Notes: a model not told the origin generated them from the letters alone. A stretch of DNA of 64,000 bases from an uncultured Anaerolineales bacterium (GCA_937952305.1 CALFZO010000139.1:36355-100354), one strand, 5' to 3'; counted from the stretch's first letter, positions 1,621 to 23,944 are shown. Program-made: numbers and translations.

Positions 1621-2649
1621 TCAGCGCGTCAGGTGAACCGGCTGCCCGGCGCGCGCCGACTGGTAGATCGCCTCGACCAACTGCAGACTGCGCTTCCCCT
1701 CGCGGCCGTCGAGGAGAGGCTGGCGGCGCTCACGGAGGGCGGCGACGAAGTCCTGTAATTGAGCTGTGTGCCCGGCCGTCGAGATATCCATGGGGCGAGC
1801 GGCGCCGCTGCTGATGGCGGCCTCCTCCGAACCGGCCTCGCGCGGCTCCTGCAGGTGCCACTCCAGCCGGCCGAGCCCCTTGTGATAGACGGCGCTGCCA
1901 TTCGTGCCGAAGAACTCCAGACGCTCCGGGTAGCCGGGATAGGCGGCGGTCGTCGCCTGGACCAGGCCGAGCTTGCCGTCCGGGTAGGTCAGCAGCGCCT
2001 GAACGGCGTCCTCCACCTCGATCGCGTGCGCGAGGGTCCGGGCCTGGGCGGTCACGGCGGCGGGCAGACCAGCCAGCCAGACCAGCAGATCCAGGGCATG
2101 GATGGCCTGGTTGATGAGCACCCCGCCCCCCGACTGCGCCGGGGAGGTGCGCCACGCCCGGCTGGCGTAATAGGCGTCATCGCGGTGCCACAGCGTGCTG
2201 GCGCTCACCCAGACCAGCCGGCCCAGCCGCCCCGAGTCGATCAGCGCCTTCAGCTTGAGGGTCAGCGGCTCGAAGCGGCTTTGGAAAACGACCCCCAGCG
2301 TGATGCCCGCCTGCTCGCAGGCCGTGAGCATGGCCTCACACTCGGCGACCGTGGTCGCCATGGGCTTCTCGCACCAGACATGCTTGCCGGCCGCGGCCGC
2401 CGCCTGCGTGAGCGGCGCGTGCAGATCGTGCGCGGTGCAGATGGTCACCGCGTCCACATCGGCGCGAGCCAGCACCTCGCGATAGTCGGCGTGCCAGGCG
2501 CCCCCGTACTGGGCTGTAAAAGCCTGGCCGCGCGCCGGGTCGCGCGTGGCCGCGGCGACCAGTTCACAGCCTGGCGTGGCCCGGATGGCGGCGGCATGGA
2601 CGGGCGCGATGTTGCCGACCCCAAGAATGGCGAAGCGAATAGTCTGCAT
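1621..2649 (-). CDS. Gfo/Idh/MocA-family NAD(P)-dependent oxidoreductase
   Basis: N-terminal Rossmann segment IRFAILGVGNIAPVHAAA and the family EKP motif (WCEKPMA). It is the last gene of the long minus-strand run. Confidence 0.75.
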   Translation of the reverse strand: MQTIRFAILGVGNIAPVHAAAIRATPGCELVAAATRDPARGQAFTAQYGGAWHADYREVLARADVDAVTICTAHDLHAPLTQAAAAAGKHVWCEKPMATTVAECEAMLTACEQAGITLGVVFQSRFEPLTLKLKALIDSGRLGRLVWVSASTLWHRDDAYYASRAWRTSPAQSGGGVLINQAIHALDLLVWLAGLPAAVTAQARTLAHAIEVEDAVQALLTYPDGKLGLVQATTAAYPGYPERLEFFGTNGSAVYHKGLGRLEWHLQEPREAGSEEAAISSGAARPMDISTAGHTAQLQDFVAALRERRQPLLDGREGKRSLQLVEAIYQSARAGQPVHLTR

Positions 2650-2679: not shown

Positions 2680-3774
2680 TCAGGCGCCAAAGCGGCGATA
2701 CCGCTCGACGACAGCGGCCATGGCGAACAGATTGTCGTCCGGCGTGCCGTGGTCCATGTTGATGCAGCAGATGCCGGCGAGTTGCAGAGGGCCGGCCGCC
2801 TGCAGCAGGCGTTCGGTGTCGGCGGCAATCTCGGCCGGCGTGCACTGTAACATCCGGACCGGGCTCAAGCGCAGATTCAAGAACGCGTCCGGCAGCAACT
2901 CGCGGCAGCGGGCCACGTCCGACCCCCAGCCGACGTCGTAAAAGCTGGCCGGCAGCTGCGCGTACTCAGCCGCGATGCGATGCAGGTTGTCGCCGCAGTG
3001 GTGGATCCCGAACGGGGTCAAGCGCTGGGCGAGGACTTGCTCGACCGGGAACTGCAGCGCGCGGTAACTGCGCGGTGAGATCATCTGCACCGAACAGTTG
3101 GCGTGCAGGAACGGCGTTGGCGTCAGCCGGGCCGCCATGCGGTTGACCGAGATCGAATAGCTGCCGGTGCGGGAGTGGAGGTAGCTGGCCACATCGCCGA
3201 TCAGCTCGGCGATGAGTTCGAGCAGCCGCCGGACCCGGCCGGGCGCCTGGTAGAAATCGGCGAACATGTCCTGACCGTAAAGGTGGTAGGCCGCGTTCAG
3301 CAGACCGTCGGTGTTCAGGTCGCCAACCAGGTAACCGTGCTCGGCCTCGAGCGCGTCCATCTGGCGGATGAGCTCGCGCATGGGCCAGCGCGCCCGGAAG
3401 TCTGGTTTCTCCAGGGCCTCGATTTCGGCCGGCGAAAGCTGGACGGGCTCGGGCTGCGGCGCCGCGTCCGCCTCAAAGCGGATGCGCGCGCCGAGGAGGG
3501 CCGGGATGACGAAGCCGCCGGCGACGTGCAGGGAGCCGATGACCGGCCGCGGCTGCGGGGCGGCCTCGCCCAGACCCAACTGCCCGTAGCGCTCGTGCAG
3601 GACGCGCCGCATCGTCACGTCATTGGCGATGCGGGCGGCCGGATCCAGGTAAAAGCCCTCGCCAAAGTCGAGGCCGGCGGCGTGATGCCACCAGTTCGGG
3701 TTGAAGACCAGCTCCAGCGGCAGGAACTGGTCCGGTGTGAGCGCTGTCACAGGCGCCGCCAGCGGCGCGCTCAC
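2680..3774 (-). CDS. URO-D/MtaA-superfamily protein, paralog 1 (putative corrinoid-dependent methyltransferase)
   Basis: About 360 aa, the length of a URO-D-like TIM barrel. H-H-C-G sits at 2992-3003 and further Cys residues follow (GICCINMDHG). The start overlaps the gnd stop (ATGA). Confidence 0.5.
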   Translation of the reverse strand: MSAPLAAPVTALTPDQFLPLELVFNPNWWHHAAGLDFGEGFYLDPAARIANDVTMRRVLHERYGQLGLGEAAPQPRPVIGSLHVAGGFVIPALLGARIRFEADAAPQPEPVQLSPAEIEALEKPDFRARWPMRELIRQMDALEAEHGYLVGDLNTDGLLNAAYHLYGQDMFADFYQAPGRVRRLLELIAELIGDVASYLHSRTGSYSISVNRMAARLTPTPFLHANCSVQMISPRSYRALQFPVEQVLAQRLTPFGIHHCGDNLHRIAAEYAQLPASFYDVGWGSDVARCRELLPDAFLNLRLSPVRMLQCTPAEIAADTERLLQAAGPLQLAGICCINMDHGTPDDNLFAMAAVVERYRRFGA

Positions 3775-5717
3775 GCGCTGTAACTGGAGGCGGTCACCGA
3801 ACCGCCGAGGCCGGTCCAGTTCGTGTGGAAGAACTGGCCGCGCGGCTGGTCGACGCGCTCATACGTATGCGCGCCGAAGTAGTCGCGCTGGGCCTGGATC
3901 AGGCTGGCCGGCAGCCAGCCCGCGCGATACCCATCGAAGAAAGTCAGGGCGCTGGCCATCGCCGGCACGGGCACCCCGTTCTCCACGGCCCGCGCCACCA
4001 CGCGCCGCCAGGCCGGCTGAACGGCCTGGATCTCGTGGCGGAAATACGGCGCCAGCAACAGATTGCTCAGATGCGGGTCGGCCGCGTAGGCCTCCTTGAT
4101 CTTGCCCAAAAAGGCCGAGCGGATGATGCAGCCGCCGCGCCACATCAGGGCGATGCCGCCATAGTTCAGATTCCAGCCGTGCTCACGCGCCACGGCGCGC
4201 ATGAGCATGAAGCCCTGCGCGTAAGAGATGATCTTGGCCGCGTACAGCGCGTCGCGGATCGCCGGGAGCCAGGCCGCGCGGTCTGTGGCGACGGAGACGG
4301 CCGGCCCGGACAGGATCTTTTCGGCCGCGACGCGTTCGTCTTTAAGCGCCGAGAGCGAGCGCGCCAGCACCGCCTCGCTGATCAAGGTCAATGGCATGCC
4401 GGCTTCCAGCGCCGCCATCACCGTCCAGCGGCCGGTGCCCTTCTGCCCAGCCACGTCCAGGATCTTGCCCACCAGCGGCTGGCCATCCGCATCCTGGACC
4501 GCCAGGATCTGGCCCGTGATCTCGATCAGATACGAGTTGAGCGGGCCGCGATCCCACTCCGCGAAGACCGGCGCGGCCTCCGCGTCCGTCAGCCCCACCA
4601 GCGTCCGCAGAAGCTGATAGGCCTCGGCGATGAGCTGCATGTCGCCGTACTCGATGCCGTTGTGCACCATCTTAACAAAGTGCCCGGCGCCGTTTTCGCC
4701 CACCCACTCACAGCAGGGCGTGCCATCCTCGACCTTGGCGGCGATGGCTTGGAAGATGTCCTTGACGTGCGGCCAGGCCGCCGGTGAGCCGCCCGGCATG
4801 ATGGACGGCCCGTGGCGGGCGCCCTCCTCGCCGCCGGAAACGCCGGTGCCGACATAGAGCAGCCCTTTGGACTCCAGATAGGCAGCGCGGCGGAGGCTGT
4901 CCTCGTAATTCGAGTTGCCGCCGTCGATGACGATATCGCCCGGCTCCAGGAGCGGCAGCAGCAGCTCGATGAAGTCGTCCACGGGCGGGCCGGCTTTGAC
5001 CATGAGCATCACGCGCCGCGGCCGCTTGAGCAAGCCCACCAACTCCTCCAGCGAGTGCGCGCCCACCACCGCCGTGCCCCGGGCGGGCCCCTGGAGGAAC
5101 TCGTCCACCTTGGCCACGGAGCGGTTGAACACGGCGATTTTGAAGCCGTGATCGTTCATGTTGAGGACCAGGTTCTGGCCCATCACGGCCAGGCCGATCA
5201 GCCCGAGGTCACACTGTGTCATGGGAGATTCTTTCTGCTCGATGAGGGTTCCAAGAATACGCTCAACCAACTGCTCCGGCGGCGCAGCGATGTCCAGCGT
5301 GAGGGCGTCGGCGGGTGCCTCCAGCGTCGCGAACTGGCTGGTCAGCATCTCAGGCTTCATGTAATGGCCCTGGCGAGACTGCAGGCGCCCCAGGATCAGG
5401 TCATAGCTGCCGCGCAGGTGGACAAAGTTTACCTCCGAACTGACACGCAACCGTTCCCGATATTGGTGCTTGAGGGCCGAGCAGGCCAGCACCGCCGAGC
5501 GGCCGGCCGCGCTCTCGCGGCGCAACAGGTCCGCCAGGGTGCTGAGCCAGCCGGCGCGATCCTCGTCTGTGAGCGGGACGCCGCGCCCCATTTTGGCTTT
5601 GTTTTCAGGCGGGTGAAAGTCGTCGCCGTCGTAGAACGGCCAGCCCAGCCGTTCGGCCAGCCTGCGGCCGATGGTGGTCTTGCCGCAGCCGGACACGCCC
5701 ATGACGATCACGATCAC
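3771..5717 (-). CDS. gnd: Gluconokinase fused in frame to 6-phosphogluconate dehydrogenase (decarboxylating)
   Basis: Residues 1-165 resemble GntK (VMGVSGCGKTTIG...FYDGDDFHPPENKAKMGRGVPLTDEDRAGWL). Residues 166-648 resemble Gnd (LGLIGLAVMGQNLVLNMNDHGF...). There is no stop codon between the two parts. An internal ATG lies at 5222. Confidence 0.85.
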   Translation of the reverse strand: MIVIVMGVSGCGKTTIGRRLAERLGWPFYDGDDFHPPENKAKMGRGVPLTDEDRAGWLSTLADLLRRESAAGRSAVLACSALKHQYRERLRVSSEVNFVHLRGSYDLILGRLQSRQGHYMKPEMLTSQFATLEAPADALTLDIAAPPEQLVERILGTLIEQKESPMTQCDLGLIGLAVMGQNLVLNMNDHGFKIAVFNRSVAKVDEFLQGPARGTAVVGAHSLEELVGLLKRPRRVMLMVKAGPPVDDFIELLLPLLEPGDIVIDGGNSNYEDSLRRAAYLESKGLLYVGTGVSGGEEGARHGPSIMPGGSPAAWPHVKDIFQAIAAKVEDGTPCCEWVGENGAGHFVKMVHNGIEYGDMQLIAEAYQLLRTLVGLTDAEAAPVFAEWDRGPLNSYLIEITGQILAVQDADGQPLVGKILDVAGQKGTGRWTVMAALEAGMPLTLISEAVLARSLSALKDERVAAEKILSGPAVSVATDRAAWLPAIRDALYAAKIISYAQGFMLMRAVAREHGWNLNYGGIALMWRGGCIIRSAFLGKIKEAYAADPHLSNLLLAPYFRHEIQAVQPAWRRVVARAVENGVPVPAMASALTFFDGYRAGWLPASLIQAQRDYFGAHTYERVDQPRGQFFHTNWTGLGGSVTASSYSA

Positions 5718-6991
5718 GACCGGCCGCCTTCCGGCGCTCCCGGGACCAGCGGCGTTCGCAGCCGGTAGAGGAACTCGCCCGCGCGCGGCACCACCAGGGT
5801 CTCCGGATCGGCCTCGGCCAGCCAGCGCGCCGGATCGAGGGCGGCTGGGTCGCGATAGCCGAGGTTCACGGCGCGACAGACCGCCTCCGGGATGCCGGTG
5901 GCGAGCGTCACCTGGATCCGCGGCGTCTCGATCCCGCTCGCGGCGTCATACGCGCCAATGCCCCGCAAGTGGGTGGAATGCGCCAGCACGCCCCAGGGGA
6001 TGTGCTTGAAGCGGTCCCATTGGTGGACAAAGTAATCCCGGACATGATAGCCCACCTGGCGGATCAGTGCGCCGTGGGTGACGCTGATCTCGCGGACATG
6101 CGGCGCATAGATGATCACCTCCCCGCCGTCGGCCACCACCGGCTCCAGCTTATACATCCCCTTCGCGCCCACCCAGATCTCGTCGTACATTTCCGGCAAG
6201 ACCGAGAGGACGCGCCGGTAGGGGCGCTCGACGTAGCGCACATGCAGCTCGGCGGAGAGGTCCGCCGCGGCGCGCCAGGCCGTCTCGGGCGCCCCGAAAA
6301 ACAGCCCCGCCACGCCGTCGCTGTGCGCGTCACCGGAGACGATGACACTGCACAGGGCCCGGCGTGTGCGCGGGATCATGGCCGCCGCCCGGTCGATCAC
6401 GCGGCGCACCGGCGTCTCCGCCAGGCCGATGAGGGCGTAGGACGTGATCAGGGCGCCCAGCCAGTGGGTGAAGTCGATGATGTCGGCGCCGGCGATGCCG
6501 GGGAAGAAGTATTTGTTGCCGCCGCTGAAGCCGACGACCTCATGCGGAAAGACCGGGCCGCAGACGAGCAGTTGATCGTAGTCCAGGATGCGGCGGTTGA
6601 GGCGCACCGGCACATCCTGGCGCAGCCGTCCCTGGCTGATCTCGGCGATCTCGGCGGCCGGGATCACGCCCAGGCTGAGCAAGGCCTGCGGATCATTCCA
6701 GGCATGGTTGAACAGGCCGATGTCCGGATACTGGGCGGCCTTCGTCTCGGCCGTCAGCCCCACCAGCCGCAGCAGGGCCGCCTCGCTCAGCGGCGGGTGC
6801 GTGCCCAGGGCGACGATGAAATCCAGCTGCCGCACCCGCGGCTGGAGGTGCCGGACCAGCAGGCGAAAGAACAGCGGCAACGGCATCGTCCGCGTGTGGT
6901 CGGGGATGATCACCAGCACGCGGCCGCCGTCGGGCCGCATCTCGTCCACGCCGCCGGCGATGATCGCCTCAATCTGAGCGTCAGTCAACAT
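5714..6991 (-). CDS. LarA-like nickel-pincer (NPN) dependent 2-hydroxyacid racemase/epimerase
   Basis: DUF2088/LarA-like N-terminus (RVLVIIPDHTRTMPLP) and an H-x9-K-x15-H signature (PHEVVGFSGGNKYFFPGIAGADIIDFTH, 6464-6544). I chose the start at MLTDAQ (6991). The ORF-track start at 7309 would overlap the upstream SDR gene. Confidence 0.65.
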   Translation of the reverse strand: MLTDAQIEAIIAGGVDEMRPDGGRVLVIIPDHTRTMPLPLFFRLLVRHLQPRVRQLDFIVALGTHPPLSEAALLRLVGLTAETKAAQYPDIGLFNHAWNDPQALLSLGVIPAAEIAEISQGRLRQDVPVRLNRRILDYDQLLVCGPVFPHEVVGFSGGNKYFFPGIAGADIIDFTHWLGALITSYALIGLAETPVRRVIDRAAAMIPRTRRALCSVIVSGDAHSDGVAGLFFGAPETAWRAAADLSAELHVRYVERPYRRVLSVLPEMYDEIWVGAKGMYKLEPVVADGGEVIIYAPHVREISVTHGALIRQVGYHVRDYFVHQWDRFKHIPWGVLAHSTHLRGIGAYDAASGIETPRIQVTLATGIPEAVCRAVNLGYRDPAALDPARWLAEADPETLVVPRAGEFLYRLRTPLVPGAPEGGRS

Positions 6992-7020
6992 GGGTCCAGT
7001 CCATTTCCTGGGCGGCAGGG

Positions 7021-7854
7021 CTACACCCCGCTGAAGGCCGCGAAGCCGCCGTCGACGGGCACGACGACGCCGGTGACAAAGGCCGACGCCGGTGAGAGCA
7101 GCCAGAGCACGGCTCCCAATAAGTCCTCGGGCTGACCGAAGCGGCCCAGCGGCGTATGGGTCAGGATCACTTCGCCGCGCGGCGTCAGAGCACCGGTGTC
7201 TTTGTCCGTGAGCAGGAAGCGGTTCTGCTCGGTCAGGAAAAAGCCTGGCGCGATGGCGTTGACGCGGATGCGCGGCGAGTACTCCTGGGCCATGTGCACG
7301 GCCAGCCACTGGGTGAAATTGCTCACCCCGGCCTTGGCCGCGGAGTAGGCCGGGATGCGCGTCAGCGGGCGGAAGGCGTTCATGGACGAGATGTTCAGGA
7401 TGACCCCCTCGCCCTGCTGGGCCAGGCGCCGCCCCACGATCTGGCTGGGCAGGATCGTGCCCAGCAAGTTTAGCTCAAACACAAACCGCAGCGCCTCAGC
7501 CGGCAAATCGAAGAACTTCCGGTCCGGTCCGGTGGTGGCGCCAGGCTGGTTGCCGCCGGCGGCGTTGATCAGGGCGTCGATGCGCCCGAACTCCTGCTCA
7601 ACCGCGGCGACAGCGGTTTCCAGGACGGCGGCCTGCAAGACGTCGCCATAGACCACAATGGCGCGGCCCCGGCTGGGCGGGAAGCGATGGATCTGGCGTT
7701 CGGCCAGGGCCTGGTCCCGGTCTAGAATGGCGACGTTGGCCCCGCAGCCTACCAGGGCACAGGCGATCTCGCCGCCCAAAACGCCGGCCCCGCCCGTGAC
7801 GAGGACCGTGCGGCCGGTGAAGTCGTACATTTGGGTGAGGTCTTGTAAGTTCAT
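7021..7854 (-). CDS. uxuB: SDR-family D-mannonate oxidoreductase / fructuronate reductase-like
   Basis: VLVTGGAGVLGGEIACALVGCGANVAILDR matches the TGGxGxLG pattern I associate with SDR-type UxuB. The gene sits between uxaE and the LarA-like gene. Confidence 0.55.
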   Translation of the reverse strand: MNLQDLTQMYDFTGRTVLVTGGAGVLGGEIACALVGCGANVAILDRDQALAERQIHRFPPSRGRAIVVYGDVLQAAVLETAVAAVEQEFGRIDALINAAGGNQPGATTGPDRKFFDLPAEALRFVFELNLLGTILPSQIVGRRLAQQGEGVILNISSMNAFRPLTRIPAYSAAKAGVSNFTQWLAVHMAQEYSPRIRVNAIAPGFFLTEQNRFLLTDKDTGALTPRGEVILTHTPLGRFGQPEDLLGAVLWLLSPASAFVTGVVVPVDGGFAAFSGV

Positions 7855-7904
7855 ACTCGCAGAGAAGTCACTCCCGGTTAGGACAGCGCCGACCCAGGCA
7901 GGGA

Positions 7905-9398
7905 TTATACCGACGCGGCGAAAGGCTGCAGGTGGCGGATAAAGTGCCGTTCCAGGGCGGCATAGTGCTCGGTCTCGTGCGCGCGCAACGCGGCCAGAAT
8001 CTCCGGGCCGAACTGCGCCAGGGCGGAGCCGAAGGTGACATGCAGGACCTCGCGCGCATCGAATTGGTCGAGCAGCGAAGGCAGCTCGGAGTCTGGCCGG
8101 GCCGCGATGGCGGGCACGCGGCTTAACTCAGCCGAGACGTGATAACTGGCGCGGTCCTGCGGGTAGCGCTCAATGGCCAGGACCGCGATGGCGCGGAACA
8201 GGGCCGGCTGGACGCGCGCCAGGGTTCGCAAGGCCTCCAGATAACTCGTGCCGGCGGTCTTGAGATGCACCCGGCCCCGCGCGGCGGCCATGATCAGCGG
8301 GTAGACGCTGAACTTATCTGAACCCGAGTGCAGGCTGAGCTTGTAAGGCCCCAGCGCGCGCGCCACCGCCGCATGCCCGGCCAGGTCGGCCGCCAGCGCC
8401 TTCAGATCCCCCAGATAGTCCACGCCCTTTTCAAAGCGCCCCACGTAACGCGGGGCCAGGCTGACCCAGCGCACCCCCAGCCGCTTCAGTTCGCTGGCGA
8501 TCAGAACATGCTCCCCATGCGTGGTCGGGGTCTCGGTCTCGTCCACCGAGACTTCCAGCTCAAAGGGCACGCCCTGGGCAGCCACATGGCGATACAAGCG
8601 GGCCACATGCGCGATGGCGTTCCCATACTTGGCCGCCGCCCGCCAGACCGCCTCGACCTCCAGCGTCAGGCGGCGATCCTCGAGCTCGAAGGTCTGGCCG
8701 GCGTAGCGCCGCTGCCAGGCCTCCGGCGAACTCTCCAGGGCCGCCCAGTCCAGCGCCTGCACCTTGGCCCGCACCGTCTCCGGGGCGGCGGAATCCGCGG
8801 CGGAATCGACGTGGGCGCCGGGATCGATGGTGTAGAACGTGAAACCGGCGGCCGCGCAGGCTTCCACATCGGCGGGCGTTTTGAGGTGGTCGGCATCGGC
8901 GCCCAGCGGACCGCGCCAGCCGCTCTCCAAAGCGCCGAAAGTCGCGTCGCGCATCACGTCCTGCGGCGTGCGGCGCGTGCGCGTCATCTCGCGAATAGAC
9001 TGCTGCGCGAAGATGGGGGCGACGGGCCGGGCGCCCGGCGTGGCGGCGACGCTGCGGAAGGCGCGGACGTGTCCGGGCGTCGCCAGGCCGAGCCGGTCCC
9101 CGCATCCGGCCGAGGTCGCCAGGCCCAGCGGCGCCGGGCGCAGGTGAGGCAGCGCCGCGGACAGCGCACGCGCGTTGGCGTCGGTGAGCGGGCAGCGCAC
9201 GAGAGTCAGCTCTGCGCCAAAGTCTGCCCCCTCGCCCGCAAACGCCATTAATCGGGCCTGGCCCGCGGGCGCCAGGACGAGCAGCTGCTTGTCCGACCCC
9301 GCGCGCGTCAGGGCGAAGGCGACGCCGTCGGCCTCGGCCAGCGAGTCGACGTAGAGCGTTTCACCAAAAGCTTCGTGCAGCCGGGCGGTCAGGTCCAT
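7905..9398 (-). CDS. uxaE: Tagaturonate/fructuronate epimerase-like protein
   Basis: About 497 aa. The segments GCGDRLGLATPGHVRAF, PIFAQQSIREMTRTRRTPQDV and GADADHLK resemble the UxaE family. It lies directly downstream of uxaC. I chose the start at MDLTARL (9398). Confidence 0.55.
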   Translation of the reverse strand: MDLTARLHEAFGETLYVDSLAEADGVAFALTRAGSDKQLLVLAPAGQARLMAFAGEGADFGAELTLVRCPLTDANARALSAALPHLRPAPLGLATSAGCGDRLGLATPGHVRAFRSVAATPGARPVAPIFAQQSIREMTRTRRTPQDVMRDATFGALESGWRGPLGADADHLKTPADVEACAAAGFTFYTIDPGAHVDSAADSAAPETVRAKVQALDWAALESSPEAWQRRYAGQTFELEDRRLTLEVEAVWRAAAKYGNAIAHVARLYRHVAAQGVPFELEVSVDETETPTTHGEHVLIASELKRLGVRWVSLAPRYVGRFEKGVDYLGDLKALAADLAGHAAVARALGPYKLSLHSGSDKFSVYPLIMAAARGRVHLKTAGTSYLEALRTLARVQPALFRAIAVLAIERYPQDRASYHVSAELSRVPAIAARPDSELPSLLDQFDAREVLHVTFGSALAQFGPEILAALRAHETEHYAALERHFIRHLQPFAASV

Positions 9399-9429
9399 GA
9401 ACTCCACTCCGGGGCGCGTCCGCCCAGAC

Positions 9430-10833
9430 TTACAGATGATAGGCCTGCTTGGCCAGGCCGTAGGCCAGGGCCTGCGCCATCTGGTGCGCGGCCTCCAGGT
9501 CCACGATATGCCGGGCCACCAACCCGGCCAGCCAGTTCGCGCTGGCCCGCCGCCACAGGTCGTGCCGGACCGGGATCGAGCAGAAGGCGCGGGTGTCGTC
9601 CACAAAGCCGGTGGTGTTGTAGAGGCCGGCCGTCTCCATCACCTGATCGAAGAAGCGCGCCATGCCATTGAGGCTGTCGAAGAACCACCACGGCGGCCCC
9701 AAACGCACGGCCGGATAATGGCCGGCCAACGGCGCCAACTCCCGGCTGTAGGTGGTCTCGTCCAGCGTGAACAGGAGCAGGCGGAAGCGTGGGTCGTTGC
9801 CAAAGCCATCCAGCAGCGGCCGCAGCGCGCGCGTGTACTCGGTGGCCACCGGAATGTCCGCGCCCTTGTCGGCGCCGAAGTCGCGCGCCAGCGGCGGGTT
9901 GTGGTCGCGGAAAGCGCCGGGGTGCAGCTGCATCACCAGCCCGTCTTCGACGCTCATCCGCGCCATCTCGAACAACATGTGGGCCGTGAAGCGCGGCGCG
10001 TCACCGGGTTCCGGGCGGCCCTGCAGCGCACGCTGGAAGATGGCCTCGGCCTCGGGTTCGGACAGGGGCCGGACCTCGGCGGTCAGCGCGGCGTGGTCCG
10101 TGGCGGTCGCGCCCAGGCGCTTGAAGTGCGCGCGGCGCTCCTCCAGAGCGGTTAAGTAGAGGCGGTAGCTGGTAATCGCGCGGCCGCTGATGGCGCTGAG
10201 CGCGTCCAGGTTGACGCGCCAGTCGGGACGGTCCAAGTTGACGACGCCATCCGGCCGGAAGGTGGGCCGGACCTGGCCTCTCCAGCCGGAGGCCCGGATC
10301 GCCTGATGCTCCGTCAGCGGGTCGCTGGCGGCATCTGTGGTGCACAGCACTTCCAGGTTGAAGCGCTCGAAGAGGGCGCGCGGACGGAACTCCGGCCCGG
10401 CCAGCTTGGCGGCGATCTGATCGTAGACGCGCTGGGCGGACGCGGCTGTCAGCGGCTCGCTCACGTCGAAGAGCTGTTCGAATTCGGCCGTCAGCCACAG
10501 GCCCGAGGGCGTGCCCTGGAAGAGGTGGAAATGCTCGGCGAAGGTCTGCCAGATGCGGCGGTGGTCGGTCTCGACGGGAGCGCCGTCGCGGCGCGCGATC
10601 CCGAGGCGCTCCAAGGCGACGCCCTGCGAATACAGCATCCGGAAGAGGTAGTGATCCGGGAGGATGAGCAGGTCCACCGGCGTCCCGAACGAGTAATCCG
10701 GGTCGGCGAACAGCTTGGGGTCGACGTGGCCGTGCGGCGAGACCAGGGGCAGGTGCGCGATGGGCGCATACAGTTCGGCCGCCAGCGCGCGCACGCCCGG
10801 CTCGGGGTTGAAGAAGCGGTGGGGGTGAAGCAT
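9430..10833 (-). CDS. uxaC: Glucuronate (uronate) isomerase
   Basis: The N-terminus MLHPHRFFNPEPGVRALAAELYAPIAHLPLVSPHGHVDPKLF is typical of UxaC, and the length is about 467 aa. Confidence 0.85.
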   Translation of the reverse strand: MLHPHRFFNPEPGVRALAAELYAPIAHLPLVSPHGHVDPKLFADPDYSFGTPVDLLILPDHYLFRMLYSQGVALERLGIARRDGAPVETDHRRIWQTFAEHFHLFQGTPSGLWLTAEFEQLFDVSEPLTAASAQRVYDQIAAKLAGPEFRPRALFERFNLEVLCTTDAASDPLTEHQAIRASGWRGQVRPTFRPDGVVNLDRPDWRVNLDALSAISGRAITSYRLYLTALEERRAHFKRLGATATDHAALTAEVRPLSEPEAEAIFQRALQGRPEPGDAPRFTAHMLFEMARMSVEDGLVMQLHPGAFRDHNPPLARDFGADKGADIPVATEYTRALRPLLDGFGNDPRFRLLLFTLDETTYSRELAPLAGHYPAVRLGPPWWFFDSLNGMARFFDQVMETAGLYNTTGFVDDTRAFCSIPVRHDLWRRASANWLAGLVARHIVDLEAAHQMAQALAYGLAKQAYHL

Positions 10834-10853: not shown

Positions 10854-12038
10854 TCAATGAGCGGCGCCGCCCTCGCGCAGCGCCTCCCACATGGCCAGGA
10901 CGTTCTCAGGCGGGACGTCGGCCTGAATGTTGTGGATGGTGTTGAAGACGTAACCGCCGCCCGGGGCCAGCGCCTCTATGTTGCGCTTCACGTTGTCGCG
11001 CACGTCCTGAGGCGTGCCAAATGGCAGCACGCTCTGAGTCTCCACGCCGCCGCCCCAAAAAGCCAGGTCCCGCCCGAAGTCGCGCTTGAGGGCGGCCGGC
11101 TCCATGCCGGTGGCCGTGATATGGATCGGGTTGAGCACCTCCACGTCGATCTCGATCAGGTCCGGCAGGATCGGGCGGATGTTGCCGTCCGAGTGGAAGA
11201 AACGCTTGGCGTTGGGGGCGAGCTGCTTGAGCCGCGCGAAGAGCGCGGCCAGGCGCGGCTTGAAGAGCTTGCGGAACATGCGCGGCGAGACGAGCTGGGA
11301 GGTCTGCGTGCCGTAATCGTCGGCCTCGGAGATCACGTCCACCACATCGGCCAGCTGCGGCAGCGCCATCTCCCAGAAGGCGAGCTTCAGCTCCAGCATC
11401 TTGTCCAGGAAGGCGCAGGCCAGGCGCTCGTCCGCGGCCAGGTCCATCAGCAGGGCCTGCATGCCGCGCACGCGCTGCGACATCTCAAAGATGCCGGCCA
11501 GCACGCCCTTGACCATCACGGCCCGGCCCTGGGCCCGGTAGGCCAGCGCCAACTCCCGCAGCCCCGCGATGCGCCGCGGGTCGCCCGTCCACGGCCAGGG
11601 ATGCGCGGCCACGGCCTCGGGCGTGAGCGGATCCGCGGCCAGCGGCGACTTCACTACCGAATAGTACAGCACGTCCTTGGGGCGGCGGTGGGTGATGCCC
11701 CACTCGTCGTGGTACTCCCAGGCCTCGCCCTGGTCCACGTCCACGATGTTCCAGTTGTGGCTGTTGAGCGGGAACAACCCGCGCACGTCCACGCCCAGGC
11801 GCTCGATCAGGTCGTCGTCCGGCAGGGCCAGCTGCTGGATCGTGTCGCACAGCGTGGGCGTAACCGGCGGCAGGCCCAGGGCGGCGCGCAGGTTTTGGTA
11901 GGCCACGACGTGAATGCCCGTGACCTGCGTGCTGCCCAGGTCGAACGGCACACGGTCTGGCTCACGGTGGTTCAGCGCGGCCAGCAAGCGTTCGCGCGAG
12001 CCGGTCGCGGACAGCGGGGACAGCGCTGGCAGGGTCAT
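10854..12038 (-). CDS. URO-D/MtaA-superfamily protein, paralog 2
   Basis: RERLLAALNHREPDRVPFDLGST is a typical URO-D-family N-terminus. H-S-D-G (FFHSDGN) occupies the position where other paralogs have H-x-C-G. The start overlaps the nagB stop (ATGA). Confidence 0.6.
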   Translation of the reverse strand: MTLPALSPLSATGSRERLLAALNHREPDRVPFDLGSTQVTGIHVVAYQNLRAALGLPPVTPTLCDTIQQLALPDDDLIERLGVDVRGLFPLNSHNWNIVDVDQGEAWEYHDEWGITHRRPKDVLYYSVVKSPLAADPLTPEAVAAHPWPWTGDPRRIAGLRELALAYRAQGRAVMVKGVLAGIFEMSQRVRGMQALLMDLAADERLACAFLDKMLELKLAFWEMALPQLADVVDVISEADDYGTQTSQLVSPRMFRKLFKPRLAALFARLKQLAPNAKRFFHSDGNIRPILPDLIEIDVEVLNPIHITATGMEPAALKRDFGRDLAFWGGGVETQSVLPFGTPQDVRDNVKRNIEALAPGGGYVFNTIHNIQADVPPENVLAMWEALREGGAAH

Positions 12039-12820
12039 GGCAGCCTCGCGGCGGAGTCCTGATCCAGGAAGAGGCGGGCGTGCGGGCAGCGCCGCAGGAT
12101 CGAGGCCGGGCAGGCCTCGCTGACTGGGCCGCGCAGGGCGCGCTCCACGGCTTCGGCTTTGCGCGCCTCCGGCACAATGGCGAGCACGCGCCGGGCGGAG
12201 AGCAGGGCCGGGATGGTGAGCGTGATGGCGTGCGTGGGCACCTCGTCGAGAGCGGCAAAATGGCCCTCACCCACCTGCTGCCGGCGCGAGGCCTCCGCCA
12301 GTTTGATCACCTTCACCCAGACCGGATCGGCGAAGTCGGCGTAGGGCGGATCGTTGAAGGCCAGATGCCCGTTCTCGCCGATGCCGAGCGCGCACAGGTC
12401 GATGGGCTGAGCGCGCAGGGCGGCCTCATACGTGGCGCACAGGTTGGCGGCCTGGTCGGCCTGCCCCCCAACCGCGAAGAAGCGGCGCGGCTTGACGGCG
12501 TCCAGCAGATGCCGGCGCAGAAACGCCGGGAAACTAGCCGGATGACCCTCCGGCAGCCCCAGATACTCGTCCATGTGGAAGACATTGACGGCGGACCAAT
12601 CCACCCGCGAGTCTTCGCGGAGCGCGTGCAGGAACGTCAACTGCGAATTGCCGGTGGCCAGAATGACGTTGGCGACGCCGCGCTCAGAGATGGCGGCCTG
12701 GAGGACGTCCACCGCCTCATCGGCGGCCGCCCGGCCGAGGGCCTGGTTGGTCGGGTAGACGCGGACGAGCAAGTCATCACAGTGGGAGGCAGAGAGGAAG
12801 TTCGGCATCGGACCTTTCAT
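12035..12820 (-). CDS. nagB: Glucosamine-6-phosphate deaminase
   Basis: ILATGNSQLTFLHAL and FHMDEYLGLPEGHPASF motifs. The start overlaps the SGNH gene stop (ATGA). Confidence 0.85.
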   Translation of the reverse strand: MKGPMPNFLSASHCDDLLVRVYPTNQALGRAAADEAVDVLQAAISERGVANVILATGNSQLTFLHALREDSRVDWSAVNVFHMDEYLGLPEGHPASFPAFLRRHLLDAVKPRRFFAVGGQADQAANLCATYEAALRAQPIDLCALGIGENGHLAFNDPPYADFADPVWVKVIKLAEASRRQQVGEGHFAALDEVPTHAITLTIPALLSARRVLAIVPEARKAEAVERALRGPVSEACPASILRRCPHARLFLDQDSAARLP

Positions 12821-13443
12821 CAGGTGGGCGAGCCCAGCAGCGGGTACAGGCCGCCGGCCAGGAAGGCGGCCTGCTGCGCGCGGGCCGCCTCGGTGAAGTG
12901 GACGTGATCGCTATAGGCCGCGCGGCCCAGGGTGAGCGTGAACGTGAACAGATCCAGGGTGACGACGCCGCAGGCCCGCATGACCTCATCCGCGGCGCGG
13001 TTGTACGCCTCGACATCGGCCGCGAAGCGCCGAAACCCCAGACCGGGCCGGTTGTGCAGCTCATCCACGACCGGGGTGGTTCGGACCCACCCGACGCGGC
13101 CGGCCAGCCCGCGCGCGAGGGCCAGGATCTCAGCCAGATTGGCGCGGTACTCGTCCAGAGGCACCTGCAGCTCGCCCGTCTCGGATGAGCGCCGGAGATC
13201 ATGCAGGCCGCAGTTCACCAGCAAGAGGTCAAATTGGCCGGCCGGCGGCAGCGAGGCCAGGTACGCGCGCACCCGGCGCGAGTCGCCGCCGTTGGCGTCG
13301 CTGTCCTCGTCCAATTCGCCGTTCGGCCCGGTCTTGCGCGAATACTGCGCGGTCCCGGCCAGCCGGGCTTCCAGGTGCGGGCCGTAATGGATCGAGATGC
13401 TGTCCCCCACGACGTGCAGGCGGGACAGGCTCTCAGCCGGCAT
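12820..13443 (-). CDS. SGNH/GDSL-family hydrolase (putative sugar esterase)
   Basis: Block I is HVVGDSISIHYG, and a later block GLHD... follows. I preferred the start at 13443 (GGGGAG RBS 7 nt upstream) over 13494. Confidence 0.65.
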   Translation of the reverse strand: MPAESLSRLHVVGDSISIHYGPHLEARLAGTAQYSRKTGPNGELDEDSDANGGDSRRVRAYLASLPPAGQFDLLLVNCGLHDLRRSSETGELQVPLDEYRANLAEILALARGLAGRVGWVRTTPVVDELHNRPGLGFRRFAADVEAYNRAADEVMRACGVVTLDLFTFTLTLGRAAYSDHVHFTEAARAQQAAFLAGGLYPLLGSPT

Positions 13444-14614: not shown

Positions 14615-15252
14615 GCTGCCGCGACCAGGGACTTGGCCAGGGTCACGGCGCGGCTGGCATCCGGGGCGTAACCATCCGCCCCGATTTTTTGGGCGAACAC
14701 CTCAGTGACCGGCGCGCCGCCGACGATCACGCGCACCTGGTCCCGCAGGCCGGCCGCGGTCAGAGCGTCGAGCGTGGCTTTCATATTGGGCATGGTCGTC
14801 GTCAGGAGCGCCGAGAGCGCCACGATCTGCGGCTGGTGCGCGCGGACCGCGTCGACGAACTTCTGGGGCGGCACGTCCACGCCCAGGTCCACGATGTCAA
14901 ACGCGGCGCCCTCCAACATCATGCCCACCAGGTTCTTGCCGATGTCGTGCAGGTCGCCCTTCACCGTGCCCAGCACGATCTTGCCGGAGGATTTGATATC
15001 CGCCTGAACCAGGTGCGGCCTGAGCAGTTCCAGACCGGCCTGCATGGCGCGCGCGGCGATGAGCATTTCGGGCACGAAATAATCGCCCTGCTCGAACAAT
15101 CGGCCGACTTCGGCCATCGCCGCGATCATGCCGTCGGTCAGGATGTGGGCCGGCCCCTGGCCGGCCTGCAGCGCCGCGGCGACGGCCGTGGTCGTCGCCT
15201 CGCCCTCGCCATTGAGGACGCCCTCGTAAACAGCCCGGATATACTCGTTCAT
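14611..15252 (-). CDS. Cobalamin-binding corrinoid protein (MtaC/MtvC-like)
   Basis: N-terminal helical cap followed by a B12-binding Rossmann domain with D-x-H-x-x-G (GDLHDIGKNLV, 14938-14955), S-x-L (ALSALLTTT) and GG (VIVGGAPV). An AAGGAG RBS precedes ATG 15252. Confidence 0.85.
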   Translation of the reverse strand: MNEYIRAVYEGVLNGEGEATTTAVAAALQAGQGPAHILTDGMIAAMAEVGRLFEQGDYFVPEMLIAARAMQAGLELLRPHLVQADIKSSGKIVLGTVKGDLHDIGKNLVGMMLEGAAFDIVDLGVDVPPQKFVDAVRAHQPQIVALSALLTTTMPNMKATLDALTAAGLRDQVRVIVGGAPVTEVFAQKIGADGYAPDASRAVTLAKSLVAAA

Positions 15253-15277
15253 AGCGGTCTTCCTCTTCTCCTTCGTT

Positions 15278-19624: not shown

Positions 19625-19634
19625 AGGGCAGGCC

Positions 19635-21772: not shown

Positions 21773-21794
21773 GCGGCACACTCCTCGAGGCCGG

Positions 21795-21826
21795 GGAGGC
21801 CCCCGCCGGCAGGCGCGGGGGCCTCC
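21795..21826 (-). other. Intercistronic GC-rich stem-loop after the binding-protein gene
   Basis: GGAGGCCCCCGC-N8-GCGGGGGCCTCC is a perfect 12-bp inverted repeat, lying between the SBP stop (21843) and the permease start. Confidence 0.6.
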
Positions 21827-21842
21827 GCTCAGGCGCTAACGG

Positions 21843-23861: not shown

Positions 23862-23944
23862 GGGTTCTCCTCGAATTACTGCTCGGTTGAGTGGGGCCGA
23901 CAGGCGCAGTAGAACTGGACGCGATGGGCGCCTCCTTGTCGCAT

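What the first reader, a model, noticed from the sequence alone, without database searches (positions are those of the whole stretch)
3771..10833. Predicted non-canonical uronate route: fructuronate to mannonate, C2-epimerisation to gluconate, then 6-phosphogluconate and ribulose-5-P
Seen in the sequence: the genes uxaC, uxaE, SDR-type uxuB, LarA-like and gntK::gnd are consecutive and tightly packed or overlapping. Mannonate/altronate dehydratase, KDG kinase and KDPG aldolase, the canonical continuation, are absent from this window. Established knowledge: UxaC isomerises glucuronate/galacturonate to fructuronate/tagaturonate, UxaE interconverts those two, and UxuB reduces fructuronate to D-mannonate. 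D-mannonate and D-gluconate differ only at C2. LarA homologues are nickel-pincer 2-hydroxyacid racemases/epimerases, and I recall that a D-gluconate 2-epimerase activity has been reported within the family. Inference: the LarA-like enzyme converts mannonate to gluconate. The fused kinase/dehydrogenase then channels gluconate into the oxidative pentose-phosphate step, bypassing the Entner-Doudoroff-like branch.
Basis: partly seen in the sequence, partly recalled or inferred. Interest (0 to 1): 0.75.

Follow-up and report, generated by a model that had tools for sequence, protein, structure and literature searches.

The report
Known uronate-to-pentose-phosphate route, Chloroflexota copy
Five tightly packed genes in a sludge Chloroflexota bacterium encode a way of burning sugar acids from plant and microbial polymers through gluconate into the pentose-phosphate pathway; the route is real here, but it was proposed in 2012 for Thermotoga and its key nickel enzyme was shown to work in 2020, so this is a new example and not a new pathway.

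Summary
On the minus strand, 3771-10833 carries uxaC, uxaE, an SDR-type fructuronate reductase, a LarA homologue and a continuous gntK::gnd fusion. Each passes curated family cut-offs or has strong matches. Gaps are 11-50 bp or 4-bp overlaps. No uxuA/uxaA, kdgK, kdgA or larBCE lies in the 64 kb.

It is the Thermotoga maritima gnd-uxaRED-gntEK route (Rodionova 2012), and GntE activity was shown in vitro (Desguin 2020). The LarA homologue belongs to published LarAH group 19. It is 44% identical to assayed Corynebacterium GntE1 and 34% to T. maritima GntE2/PDB 4NAR, and it keeps all catalytic and cofactor-binding residues.

In 80 other genomes its relatives sit after the same SDR (26/59) and before Gnd or a hexonate kinase (28/59). 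The fusion also occurs elsewhere as a stand-alone gene.

Three points stay open:
- whether the epimerase acts on mannonate or 6-phosphomannonate;
- whether the dehydratase branch is absent genome-wide;
- whether the nickel cofactor is made.

The five genes are the tail of a ~25-kb locus with six UroD-superfamily proteins, a corrinoid protein, NagA, and a NagB-like protein lacking NagB's phosphate ligands. That part is unexplained and is the more interesting lead.

The parts
9430..10833 (-). uxaC, glucuronate/galacturonate isomerase (467 aa)
   Evidence: NF002794 scores 505.7 bits (cut-off 387) and PF02614 scores 239.7 bits. The ATG at 10833 lies 20 bp after the stop of the upstream UroD-like gene.
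7905..9398 (-). uxaE, tagaturonate/fructuronate epimerase (497 aa)
   Evidence: PF16257 scores 450.5 bits over model positions 1-473 of 475. The ATG at 9398 matches the public gene call of 497 aa.
7021..7854 (-). SDR-type fructuronate reductase / D-mannonate oxidoreductase (277 aa; the UxuB/UxaD role)
   Evidence: NF006132 scores 351.3 bits (cut-off 281), and the protein has adh_short domains. The same SDR cluster lies within 3.5 kb upstream of the LarA homologue in 26 of 59 informative genome loci.
5714..6991 (-). gntE-like LarA homologue, LarAH group 19, predicted NPN(nickel)-dependent D-mannonate/D-gluconate 2-epimerase (425 aa)
   Evidence: PF09861 scores 76.7 bits. The best PDB hit is 4NAR (T. 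maritima GntE2), E 2e-69 over the full length, at 34% identity. It is 54% identical to Truepera Trad_0660 and 44% to C. glutamicum LarAH19/GntE1. Residues D31, R34, H65, H150-E151-V152, K160, H176, W273 and K277 are kept. NF052594 (group 18) scores only 176 bits against a cut-off of 500.
3771..5717 (-). gntK::gnd fusion (648 aa): a GntK/IdnK-type gluconokinase (residues ~1-160), a short linker, then decarboxylating NADP-dependent 6-phosphogluconate dehydrogenase (residues ~167-648)
   Evidence: TIGR01313 scores 179.4 bits (cut-off 113.75) on residues 4-154. TIGR00873 scores 744.8 bits (cut-off 426.7) on residues 170-635. The P-loop GVSGCGKTT starts at residue 7, and the linker reads EQKESPMTQCDLGLIG. 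Eight of the best 120 database hits have the same three-domain architecture, including the window's own protein; the other seven are 58-67% identical. The start overlaps the gntE stop (GTGA).
2680..3774 (-). UroD-superfamily protein 'UROD_z' (364 aa), translationally coupled to gnd; function unknown
   Evidence: PF01208 scores 35.3 bits. There is a 4-bp GTGA overlap with the gnd stop. Homologues at 65-75% identity sit next to uxaC in 20 of 33 long metagenome loci. Conserved motifs FGIHHCGD and ICCINMDH.
1621..2649 (-). Gfo/Idh/MocA oxidoreductase, last gene of the operon; a terminator-like hairpin follows at 1545-1562
   Evidence: PF01408, PF02894 and PF22725.
10854..12038 (-). UroD-superfamily protein 'UROD_a' (394 aa), MtaA/CmuA-like, immediately upstream of uxaC
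   Evidence: PF01208 scores 82.1 bits, with weak MtaA/CmuA hits. It is conserved next to uxaC in relatives.
12035..12820 (-). NagB-like protein (261 aa) of a subfamily that lacks NagB's phosphate-binding residues
   Evidence: PF01182 scores 102 bits. Nearest structures are GlcN6P deaminases 2RI0, 2BKV and 1CD5. Alignment A1 shows the MDEY and GHxAFNxP catalytic motifs kept, while R172 becomes G, K208 becomes T and GGT/GST becomes GNS. These changes are invariant in 7 subfamily members.
12820..14614 (-). SGNH hydrolase (12820-13443) and NagA-type deacetylase (13433-14614)
   Evidence: PF13472 scores 38 bits. TIGR00221 scores 226.8 bits against a cut-off of 225.65.
14611..17577 (-). corrinoid (B12-binding) protein (14611-15252) and two more UroD-like proteins (15278-16408, 16408-17577)
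   Evidence: PF02310 and PF02607, plus a 228-bit match to MtgC/MtaC-type corrinoid proteins.
17574..26443 (-). Opp-type ABC transporter (two ATPases, two permeases, a family-5 binding protein), a cupin (23945-24382), a sixth UroD-like protein (24375-25403) and a LacI regulator (25400-26443)
26624..27493 (+). divergently transcribed methyltetrahydrofolate:corrinoid methyltransferase (pterin-binding)
   Evidence: NF005719 scores 281.3 bits (cut-off 259), and PF00809 also matches.

Best explanation
Window 3771-10833 encodes a Thermotoga-type hexuronate-to-pentose-phosphate route in a Chloroflexota (Thermoflexales/Anaerolineae-like) bacterium from bioreactor sludge.

Proposed steps:
1. UxaC isomerises glucuronate to fructuronate and galacturonate to tagaturonate.
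2. UxaE epimerises tagaturonate to fructuronate.
3. The SDR reduces fructuronate to D-mannonate.
4. The LarA homologue (LarAH group 19, GntE type) inverts C2 of D-mannonate by transient hydride transfer to a nickel-pincer nucleotide cofactor, giving D-gluconate.
5. The GntK domain of the fusion phosphorylates gluconate to 6-phosphogluconate.
6. The fused Gnd domain decarboxylates 6-phosphogluconate to ribulose-5-phosphate, regenerating the reducing equivalent spent by the SDR.

Shown here: the gene identities, their packing, conservation of the catalytic and cofactor-binding residues, and conserved synteny across phyla. Shown by others: UxaE activity, and GntE activity of group 19 and group 20 enzymes in vitro. 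Inferred: the substrate of this particular enzyme, the order epimerase-then-kinase, cofactor supply, and flux in vivo.
For: Curated family cut-offs are passed by uxaC, the SDR, the GntK domain and the Gnd domain, and uxaE matches its Pfam model strongly.

The LarA homologue:
- It hits GntE2/4NAR at E 2e-69 over its full length, but lactate racemase only at 1e-6.
- It is 44% identical to assayed GntE1 and 54% to other group-19 members.
- Its signature D-R-H-H-E-V-K-H-V-W-V-A-K matches the group-19 logo at all but one position (with sequences from PMC7583248 Dataset S2).

The gene set (gnd, uxaE, SDR, gntE, gntK) is the same as in the T. maritima aldH-pelB-gnd-uxaRED-gntEK operon, which is induced on pectin (PMC3750489).

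Synteny in 80 species-level genomes from at least 8 phyla:
- the SDR lies upstream in 26 of 59 informative loci;
- Gnd, GntK or a PfkB kinase lies downstream in 28 of 59;
- Gnd lies within 10 kb in 31 of 80, against roughly 0.5% expected for a single-copy gene;
- three unrelated kinase families (GntK/IdnK, PfkB, FGGY) take the slot after gntE.

GTGA overlaps couple gntE to gntK::gnd, and gntK::gnd to the next gene.

The fusion joins the kinase to the enzyme that uses 6-phosphogluconate. The same fusion exists in housekeeping contexts. Both points argue that the kinase product is 6-phosphogluconate, and so that epimerisation comes first.
Against: - The nearest assayed enzyme, GntE1, has a Km of 120 mM for mannonate (GntE2 17 mM, LarAH15 9.4 mM). 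Its authors doubted that mannonate is the native substrate.
- L. suebicus extracts epimerise only the 6-phosphates.
- No larB, larC or larE lies in the window or among the frequent neighbours.
- 44% identity does not fix substrate specificity.
- The Gnd domain belongs to the common Anaerolineae lineage (74-86% identical to stand-alone Gnds). The Gnd next to gntE in the closest relatives is only 54% identical, so this could be the cell's general Gnd.
Confidence: 0.58

Rival explanations
1. Same genes and same end product, but in the Lactobacillus suebicus order. The kinase phosphorylates D-mannonate first. The LarA homologue is then a 6-phosphomannonate 2-epimerase that makes 6-phosphogluconate for Gnd.
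For: - L. suebicus extracts did not convert mannonate to gluconate without ATP. They did interconvert 6-phosphomannonate and 6-phosphogluconate, and a gntE homologue was abundant in galacturonate-grown cells (PMC6978723).
- All assayed GntEs have millimolar to 0.1 M Km values for free mannonate.
- Close relatives carry a PfkB kinase instead of GntK after gntE.
Against: - The kinase domain passes the GntK/IdnK gluconokinase model.
- It is fused to Gnd, which suits consecutive steps.
- The same fusion occurs where no epimerase is nearby.
- The PfkB kinase of relatives looks like a KDG kinase, and in L032 it sits beside GH88.
- GntE1, GntE2 and LarAH15 do turn over free mannonate.
Confidence: 0.24
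2. The LarA homologue epimerises a different sugar acid (another hexonate, a uronate or an aldarate, as Desguin et al. suggested for group 19). The neighbouring gntK::gnd is simply the cell's general gluconate/pentose-phosphate enzyme.
For: - GntE1's Km of 120 mM, and the authors' suggestion of glucarate/mannarate or an isomer of mannonate.
- The fusion is found in housekeeping contexts, and the Gnd domain belongs to the common lineage.
- About half of the related loci lack the SDR or Gnd nearby.
Against: - The SDR that makes mannonate is directly upstream, and the gluconate-consuming fusion is translationally coupled downstream.
- Kinase plus Gnd recur after gntE across phyla, with three kinase families.
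- No aldarate dehydratase or uronate dehydrogenase lies in the window.
Confidence: 0.1
3. The LarA homologue is inactive or moonlighting because the organism cannot make the nickel-pincer cofactor. Mannonate is instead handled by a dehydratase branch encoded elsewhere.
For: - No larBCE lies in 64 kb or among the frequent neighbours.
- Enolase-superfamily proteins (possible ManD-type dehydratases) were seen in 2 related loci.
- T. maritima keeps both branches.
Against: - All cofactor-binding and catalytic residues are intact and conserved in thousands of homologues.
- The gene is tightly coupled within the operon.
- larBCE are often unlinked from larA homologues: they are adjacent in only 19-33% of group-19 members.
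Confidence: 0.05

Closest known systems
Thermotoga maritima galacturonate route, operon aldH-pelB-gnd-uxaRED-gntEK (Rodionova et al. 2012; Rodionov et al. 2013, PMC3750489)
   Same: The same five functions sit in one operon: UxaE, an SDR fructuronate reductase, GntE (a LarA homologue), a gluconate kinase and Gnd. The same logic applies: mannonate to gluconate to 6-phosphogluconate to ribulose-5-P.
   Different: - GntE is group 20 there and group 19 here (34% identity).
- The kinase is FGGY-type and separate there, but GntK/IdnK-type and fused to Gnd here.
- uxaC is inside the cluster here.
- The regulator is GntR-type UxaR there and LacI-type here.
- T. maritima also has kdgAK-uxuBA. Whether this organism does is unknown.
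Corynebacterium glutamicum LarAH19/GntE1 and LarAH group 19 (Desguin et al. 2020, PMC7583248)
   Same: It is the closest assayed enzyme: 44% identity, with the same signature residues (E-V loop, helix-11 Trp, Ala before the catalytic Lys). It shows NPN-dependent D-gluconate 2-epimerase activity in vitro.
   Different: - GntE1 had a Km of 120 mM, so its native substrate was questioned.
- Published group-19 neighbourhoods (mostly Actinobacteria) showed LarB/E/C, UxaC, LacI and beta-glucuronidase, but not Gnd or GntK.
- Here, and in 80 further genomes, the group-19-type gene is flanked by the mannonate-forming SDR and by Gnd plus a kinase.
Lactobacillus suebicus hybrid isomerase-phosphoketolase pathway (Valk et al. 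2020, PMC6978723)
   Same: UxaC, UxaE and UxuB produce mannonate, which reaches 6-phosphogluconate and Gnd without UxuA, KdgK or KdgA. The conversion is redox-neutral.
   Different: The order is reversed there: a mannonate kinase acts first, then a 6-phosphomannonate 2-epimerase. The genes for those two steps are not identified, and the pathway continues through phosphoketolase.
Canonical Ashwell isomerase pathway (UxaC, UxuB/UxaB, UxuA/UxaA, KdgK, KdgA)
   Same: The upper part: uronate isomerase and fructuronate reductase.
   Different: The lower part (dehydratase, KDG kinase, KDPG aldolase) is not in this window. A C2 epimerase plus gluconokinase and 6PGDH stand in its place.
Lactate racemase LarA (Lactiplantibacillus plantarum, PDB 5HUQ)
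   Same: Same fold family. [quoted passage not shown]
   Different: Identity is only 25%. The substrate loop is F-F in LarA and E-V here. Y294 becomes W, and small residues make room for a six-carbon polyol acid.

Membership tests
LarA superfamily (NPN-dependent 2-hydroxyacid racemases/epimerases) | Lar_N domain and overall homology to solved LarA-family structures | tested here: met
   PF09861 scores 76.7 bits. 4NAR hits at E 2e-69 over the full length. 2YJG, 5HUQ and 6D6Z hit at E 7e-9 to 1e-4.
LarA superfamily (NPN-dependent 2-hydroxyacid racemases/epimerases) | Catalytic and cofactor residues equivalent to LarA D72, R75, H108, H174, K184 (NPN tether), H200 (Ni ligand) and K298 | tested here: met
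   D31, R34, H65, H150, K160, H176 and K277 are all present.
LarA superfamily (NPN-dependent 2-hydroxyacid racemases/epimerases) | Cofactor supply: larB, larC and larE in the same genome; bound Ni/NPN | not testable with these tools
   None lies in the 64-kb window or among the frequent neighbours in related loci. The rest of the genome is not available.
D-gluconate 2-epimerase GntE, LarAH groups 19/20 (Desguin 2020) | Signature: E-V/S loop after the catalytic His, Trp in helix 11, small residue before the catalytic Lys | tested here: met
   H150-E151-V152, W273 and A276-K277. This is identical to the group-19 logo except V for T at the LarA-Q295 position.
D-gluconate 2-epimerase GntE, LarAH groups 19/20 (Desguin 2020) | Sequence closer to assayed GntEs than to other LarAH groups | tested here: met
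   Identities: 54% Trad_0660 and 53% MODMU_3050 (group 19, not assayed), 44% GntE1 (group 19, assayed), 34% GntE2 (group 20, assayed), 27-30% group 18, 25% LarA.
D-gluconate 2-epimerase GntE, LarAH groups 19/20 (Desguin 2020) | Interconversion of D-mannonate and D-gluconate by the purified, NPN-loaded enzyme | not testable with these tools
   This needs an enzyme assay. It has been shown only for GntE1, GntE2, LarAH15 and LarAH10.
LarAH group 18 'putative hexonate epimerase' (NCBIfam NF052594) | Score at or above the curated equivalog cut-off | tested here: not met
   176 bits against a cut-off of 500, covering model positions 5-328 of 411. Identity to group-18 sequences is 27-30%.
Thermotoga-type hexuronate-to-pentose-phosphate module | Co-located uxaE, SDR reductase, gntE, gluconate kinase and gnd | tested here: met
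   All five functions lie consecutively in 3771-9398, with uxaC adjacent. For the T. maritima operon composition see PMC3750489.
GntK/IdnK gluconokinase | Model cut-off and P-loop | tested here: met
   TIGR01313 scores 179.4 bits against a cut-off of 113.75. GVSGCGKTT starts at residue 7. Substrate preference (gluconate or mannonate) was not tested.
Decarboxylating 6-phosphogluconate dehydrogenase (Gnd) | Equivalog model cut-off | tested here: met
   TIGR00873 scores 744.8 bits against a cut-off of 426.7, covering model positions 1-466 of 467.
Canonical Ashwell lower branch | uxuA/uxaA, kdgK and kdgA present | tested here: not met
   Absent from all GC3-supported ORFs of the window. Genome-wide absence is not testable.
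Glucosamine-6-phosphate deaminase NagB (for the neighbouring gene 12035-12820) | Catalytic Asp/His motifs plus the phosphate ligands (T41-T44 loop, R172, K208 in E. coli numbering, recalled from memory) | tested here: inconclusive
   The catalytic MDEY and GHLAFNDP motifs are kept. R172 becomes G, K208 becomes T and the loop reads GNS, all invariant in the subfamily. NCBIfam NagB models score 123-143 bits against cut-offs of 237-528.

The most novel reading that the evidence does not exclude
The uronate-to-gluconate module may be the common outlet of a conserved Chloroflexota locus that strips decorations from modified acidic sugars by undescribed enzymology.

The conserved order is: ABC transporter, NagA, NagB-like, two or three UroD-superfamily proteins, UxaC, UxaE, SDR, GntE, then kinase/Gnd.

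- The UroD-like zinc-type alkyl transferases would remove methyl groups from methylated uronates, either 4-O-methyl-glucuronate ethers or methyl-esterified galacturonate. In this lineage they would pass the methyl group through a corrinoid protein to tetrahydrofolate.
- NagA, plus a NagB-like deaminase that has lost its phosphate ligands, would turn N-acetyl-hexosaminuronates directly into fructuronate or tagaturonate.

The evidence does not exclude this, and no paper describing it was found.
Probability: 0.18. Interest if true: 0.72.

Novelty: new member of a known kind. Interest (0 to 1): 0.3.

Why it matters
The route itself is known, so the value lies in refinement.

1. Group-19 LarA homologues were assayed only once, with a Km so high that their native substrate was doubted. 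Here, and in 80 further genomes from many phyla, they sit between the mannonate-forming reductase and a hexonate kinase plus Gnd. This argues that mannonate/gluconate, or their 6-phosphates, are the real substrates.

2. Public records call these proteins 'lactate racemase' or 'DUF2088', so thousands of annotations could be corrected.

3. The route converts uronates to ribulose-5-P without net redox cost. That suits fermentative Anaerolineae in digesters and is of interest for engineering pectin and xylan utilisation.

4. The surrounding locus is a concrete, testable lead to unknown sugar-acid chemistry. It carries six UroD-like proteins, corrinoid methyl-transfer parts, and a NagB-like protein without phosphate ligands.

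Tried and rejected
- **Lactate or malate racemase.** Rejected: 25% identity to LarA, an E-V loop instead of F-F, and NCBIfam LarA and malate-racemase models at 61-80 bits against cut-offs of 460-500.

- **Group 18 or group 20 membership.** Rejected in favour of group 19 after comparison with the published sequences. My earlier working assumption, that the 4NAR hit meant group 20, was wrong.

- **Fusion as an assembly or frameshift artefact.** Rejected. The frame is continuous. The public contig L001 carries the same locus, and its gene call gives a 643-aa three-domain product. Seven other database proteins at 58-67% identity share the architecture.

- **Fusion as a hallmark of the uronate route.** Rejected. 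Three other fusions sit in unrelated or KDPG-aldolase contexts, and none of 80 gntE loci has it.

- **Corrinoid-dependent demethylation as the general role of the UroD-like genes.** Weakened. Only 1 of 33 long loci anchored on UROD_z carries a corrinoid protein.

- **Family-5 binding protein as a nickel importer for the cofactor.** The NikA model scores only 90 bits against a cut-off of 393, so this was not pursued.

- **Searches that found nothing:**
  - riboswitches (cobalamin, NiCo) and tRNAs;
  - promoter and terminator scans, which were no better than shuffles except for a hairpin after the last gene;
  - PDB searches for two UroD-like proteins;
  - six literature searches for sugar or uronate demethylation by corrinoid or UroD enzymes.

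- **Paper not held.** Rodionova 2012 itself was not available. Its content is cited through three papers that describe it.

- **Neighbour scan for larBCE.** This covered only 106 of 291 unlabelled neighbour ORFs and reports only families with several members, so rare larBCE neighbours could have been missed.


Full report
**What is in the sequence**

The window is 66-72% G+C. In the left 27 kb nearly all real genes lie on the minus strand. This was judged by third-position G+C and by family matches. The finding's coordinates are exact: 3771 is the end of the stop codon of the last gene, and 10833 is the ATG of the first.

In transcription order the genes are:
- **uxaC, 9430-10833.** NF002794 scores 505.7 bits against a cut-off of 387.
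- **uxaE, 7905-9398.** PF16257 scores 450.5 bits.
- **An SDR, 7021-7854.** NF006132 'D-mannonate oxidoreductase' scores 351 bits against a cut-off of 281.
- **A LarA homologue, 5714-6991.** PF09861 scores 76.7 bits.
- **One 648-residue gntK::gnd ORF, 3771-5717.** A GntK/IdnK gluconokinase (TIGR01313, 179 bits, cut-off 114, residues 4-154) is joined by a short linker to a full decarboxylating 6-phosphogluconate dehydrogenase (TIGR00873, 745 bits, cut-off 427, residues 170-635).

Intergenic gaps are 31, 50 and 29 bp. The LarA homologue's stop overlaps a GTG start of the fusion (GTGA). That start keeps the beta-strand before the P-loop, whereas the public gene call uses an ATG 15 bp downstream.

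Scans of all supported ORFs in the 64 kb found no mannonate or altronate dehydratase, KDG kinase or KDPG aldolase. They also found no LarB, LarC or LarE.

**Where the window comes from**

A public bioreactor-sludge metagenome contig carries the same locus; its LarA-homologue gene translates to the identical protein and the neighbouring gene calls match the window's. The nearest relatives of its proteins are Thermoflexales and Anaerolineae genome bins, at 73-86% identity for the LarA homologue.

**What the LarA homologue is**

Its best solved relative is PDB 4NAR (E 2e-69, full length, 34% identity). Desguin et al. identify 4NAR as T. maritima GntE2, an NPN-dependent D-gluconate 2-epimerase (PMC7583248).

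Using the sequences in that paper's Dataset S2, I placed the window protein among the published groups.

| Reference | Group | Identity |
|---|---|---|
| Truepera Trad_0660 | 19 | 54% |
| Modestobacter MODMU_3050 | 19 | 53% |
| C. glutamicum LarAH19/GntE1 (assayed) | 19 | 44% |
| T. maritima GntE2 (assayed) | 20 | 34% |
| Group-18 members | 18 | 27-30% |
| Lactate racemase LarA | 1 | 25% |

It therefore belongs to group 19. All 83 family members collected from other genomes also hit group 19 best.

The residues equivalent to LarA D72, R75, H108, H174, K184, H200 and K298 are D31, R34, H65, H150, K160, H176 and K277. The substrate loop is E151-V152, helix 11 carries W273, and Ala precedes the catalytic Lys. 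This is the group-19 logo apart from one T-to-V change.

The only NCBIfam model near this branch is for group 18, and it is not met (176 bits against 500). Public records name these proteins 'lactate racemase' or 'DUF2088'.

**Is the proposed route new?**

No. Three papers report that Rodionova et al. (2012) proposed it: mannonate is epimerised to gluconate by GntE, then phosphorylated by GntK and decarboxylated by Gnd. The proposal came from the T. maritima operon aldH-pelB-gnd-uxaRED-gntEK, which is induced on pectin (PMC3750489).

Desguin et al. then showed the epimerase activity in vitro:

| Enzyme | Km for D-mannonate | kcat |
|---|---|---|
| GntE2 | 17 mM | 197 s-1 |
| GntE1 | 120 mM | 59 s-1 |

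A later study added a eukaryotic GntE with a Km of 9.4 mM. The 2012 paper itself was not held.

**Evidence from other genomes**

I scanned one genome per species and obtained 80 loci with relatives of the LarA homologue at 50-76% identity. They come from Chloroflexota, Hydrogenedentota, Planctomycetota, Verrucomicrobiota, Acidobacteriota, KSB1, Myxococcota, Spirochaetales and others. I called and clustered their ORFs and counted neighbours.
- The same SDR cluster lies within 3.5 kb upstream on the same strand in 26 of 59 informative loci.
- Gnd, a GntK domain or a PfkB kinase lies within 4.5 kb downstream in 28 of 59.
- Gnd lies within 10 kb in 31 of 80. A single-copy gene would do so about 0.5% of the time by chance.
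- UxaC and UxaE each occur in 11 of 44 loci with enough upstream sequence.

Three unrelated kinase families occupy the slot after the epimerase: GntK/IdnK, PfkB and FGGY, the last being the T. maritima type.

One locus continues with GH88 and GH28 genes, which ties the module to pectin-type substrates. This neighbourhood resembles what Desguin's Table S1 lists for group 18. It adds Gnd and kinases to what was known for group 19.

**The fusion**

Eight of the best 120 database hits to the fusion share the kinase-Gnd architecture, counting the window's own protein; the other seven are 58-67% identical. It is therefore real, but uncommon.

Three of these were inspected. Two stand alone among housekeeping genes, and one sits beside a KDPG aldolase and a PfkB kinase. 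None of the 80 gntE loci has a fusion.

In the closest relatives, where other genes are 70-78% identical, gntE is followed by a separate Gnd only 54% identical to the window's, plus a KDG-kinase-like PfkB protein. The window's Gnd domain instead resembles the common stand-alone Anaerolineae Gnd, at 74-86% identity.

So the kinase-plus-Gnd slot was refilled in this lineage with a pre-existing general-purpose fusion. That supports the functional need for those two activities after the epimerase. It also shows that the fusion is not a signature of the route.

**What remains uncertain**

First, the order of the steps. L. suebicus extracts did not epimerise free mannonate but did interconvert the 6-phosphates, and a gntE homologue was abundant in those cells (PMC6978723). 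The high Km values of all assayed GntEs for free mannonate fit that picture.

Against it, the kinase here passes the gluconokinase model and is fused to the enzyme that consumes 6-phosphogluconate. I give the free-acid order 0.58 and the phosphate order 0.24.

Second, whether the dehydratase branch is truly bypassed cannot be told from one window. T. maritima keeps both branches.

Third, cofactor biosynthesis genes are not in view. In published group-19 genomes they are adjacent in only 19-33% of cases, so their absence here is weak evidence.

**Beyond the finding's borders**

The five genes are the tail of a locus spanning about 1621-27493. A terminator-like hairpin follows the last gene. In transcription order it contains:
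- a LacI regulator;
- a UroD-like gene;
- a cupin;
- a family-5 binding protein with two permeases and two ATPases;
- two UroD-like genes;
- a corrinoid protein;
- NagA;
- an SGNH hydrolase;
- a NagB-like gene;
- a UroD-like gene;
- the five genes of the finding;
- a UroD-like gene translationally coupled to gnd;
- a Gfo/Idh/MocA oxidoreductase.

A methyl-tetrahydrofolate:corrinoid methyltransferase is transcribed divergently.

I anchored a metagenome scan on the UroD-like gene next to gnd and obtained 80 loci. In the 33 longest, the neighbours were:

| Neighbour | Loci (of 33) |
|---|---|
| UxaC | 20 |
| NagA | 19 |
| NagB-like | 19 |
| Second UroD-like | 18 |
| UxaE | 17 |
| Third UroD-like | 13 |
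| SDR | 9 |
| GntE | 7 |
| Corrinoid protein | 1 |

So the UroD-like proteins are fixed partners of the uronate isomerase and of NagA and the NagB-like protein. The corrinoid parts are an addition in the window's own lineage.

The NagB-like subfamily keeps NagB's catalytic motifs. It has replaced the residues I recall as NagB's phosphate ligands: R172 becomes Gly, K208 becomes Thr, and the loop reads GNS. These changes are invariant in seven members.

I found no paper on any of this. Possible readings are removal of methyl groups from methylated uronates, and direct conversion of N-acetyl-hexosaminuronates to keto-uronates. Both are speculation.

**Verdict**

The finding is a new member of a known kind.

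Its modest added value is threefold:
- context evidence for the native role of group-19 LarA homologues;
- an annotation correction for a very large protein family;
- an in-operon kinase-Gnd fusion.

The unexplained upstream part of the locus is the better lead.

Noticed in passing
window 2680-3774, 10854-12038, 15278-17577, 24375-25403 (also L091-L166): Six UroD-superfamily (MtaA/CmuA-like) paralogues lie in one sugar-acid locus. Two or three of them are conserved right next to uxaC/uxaE and NagA/NagB-like in dozens of Chloroflexota contigs, almost always without a corrinoid protein nearby. One of them keeps a His-x-Cys ... Cys-Cys pattern like the MtaA zinc site. Their function is unknown and no literature was found.
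   Followed up: partly
window 12035-12820 (alignment A1; P0241-P0360): This NagB-like subfamily is abundant in Anaerolineae. It keeps the deaminase catalytic motifs but has invariant replacements of NagB's phosphate-binding Arg and Lys and of the GGT loop. This suggests a non-phosphorylated substrate, perhaps a carboxylated one. One relative (P0267) is fused to a cupin domain.
   Followed up: partly
window 14611-15252 and 26624-27493: A corrinoid protein and a divergently transcribed methyl-THF:corrinoid methyltransferase are present. Together with a UroD-like methyltransferase I these would form a complete O-demethylase-type system inside a LacI-regulated carbohydrate locus. No activating enzyme (RamA type) was seen.
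   Followed up: partly
L003, L005, L007, L008 versus window 3771-5717: The closest relatives have a separate Gnd (54% identical) plus a KDG-kinase-like PfkB gene where the window has the gntK::gnd fusion. The slot was refilled with a gene of a different lineage.
   Followed up: yes
L047-L054, L063, L067 (Hydrogenedentota): The group-19-type LarA homologue sits in a different conserved set: SDR, HAD phosphatase, PdxB-like 2-hydroxyacid dehydrogenase, glyoxalase-fold protein, PPi-dependent phosphofructokinase, Gnd and a xylose-isomerase-like TIM barrel. This may be a phosphorylated-substrate variant of the pathway.
   Followed up: no
L016, L034, L036 and others: FGGY kinases follow the epimerase in some loci, as in T. 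maritima. Enolase-superfamily proteins (possible ManD-type mannonate dehydratases) occur in two loci.
   Followed up: no
L087 and L088 (GCA_041300525.1 / GCA_041300535.1): In other Anaerolineae the NagA/NagB-like/UroD/UroD/UxaC/UxaE block is preceded by a GH3 glycosidase or an N-acylglucosamine 2-epimerase-family gene. Their UxaE homologues are short (314-346 aa, against 497 aa here).
   Followed up: no
window 38718-41372 and 43122-48470: Two very large membrane proteins carry DUF2298 (884 and 1782 aa). They lie among PMT_2-type glycosyltransferases, a GT4 and a lysyl-PG-synthase-like gene, which looks like a cell-envelope glycosylation cluster unrelated to the finding.
   Followed up: no
window 21843-23978: The family-5 solute-binding protein's best NCBIfam match is the nickel-binding NikA model, but far below cut-off (90 bits against 393). 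It is probably an oligosaccharide binder, though it is noted because the epimerase needs nickel.
   Followed up: no
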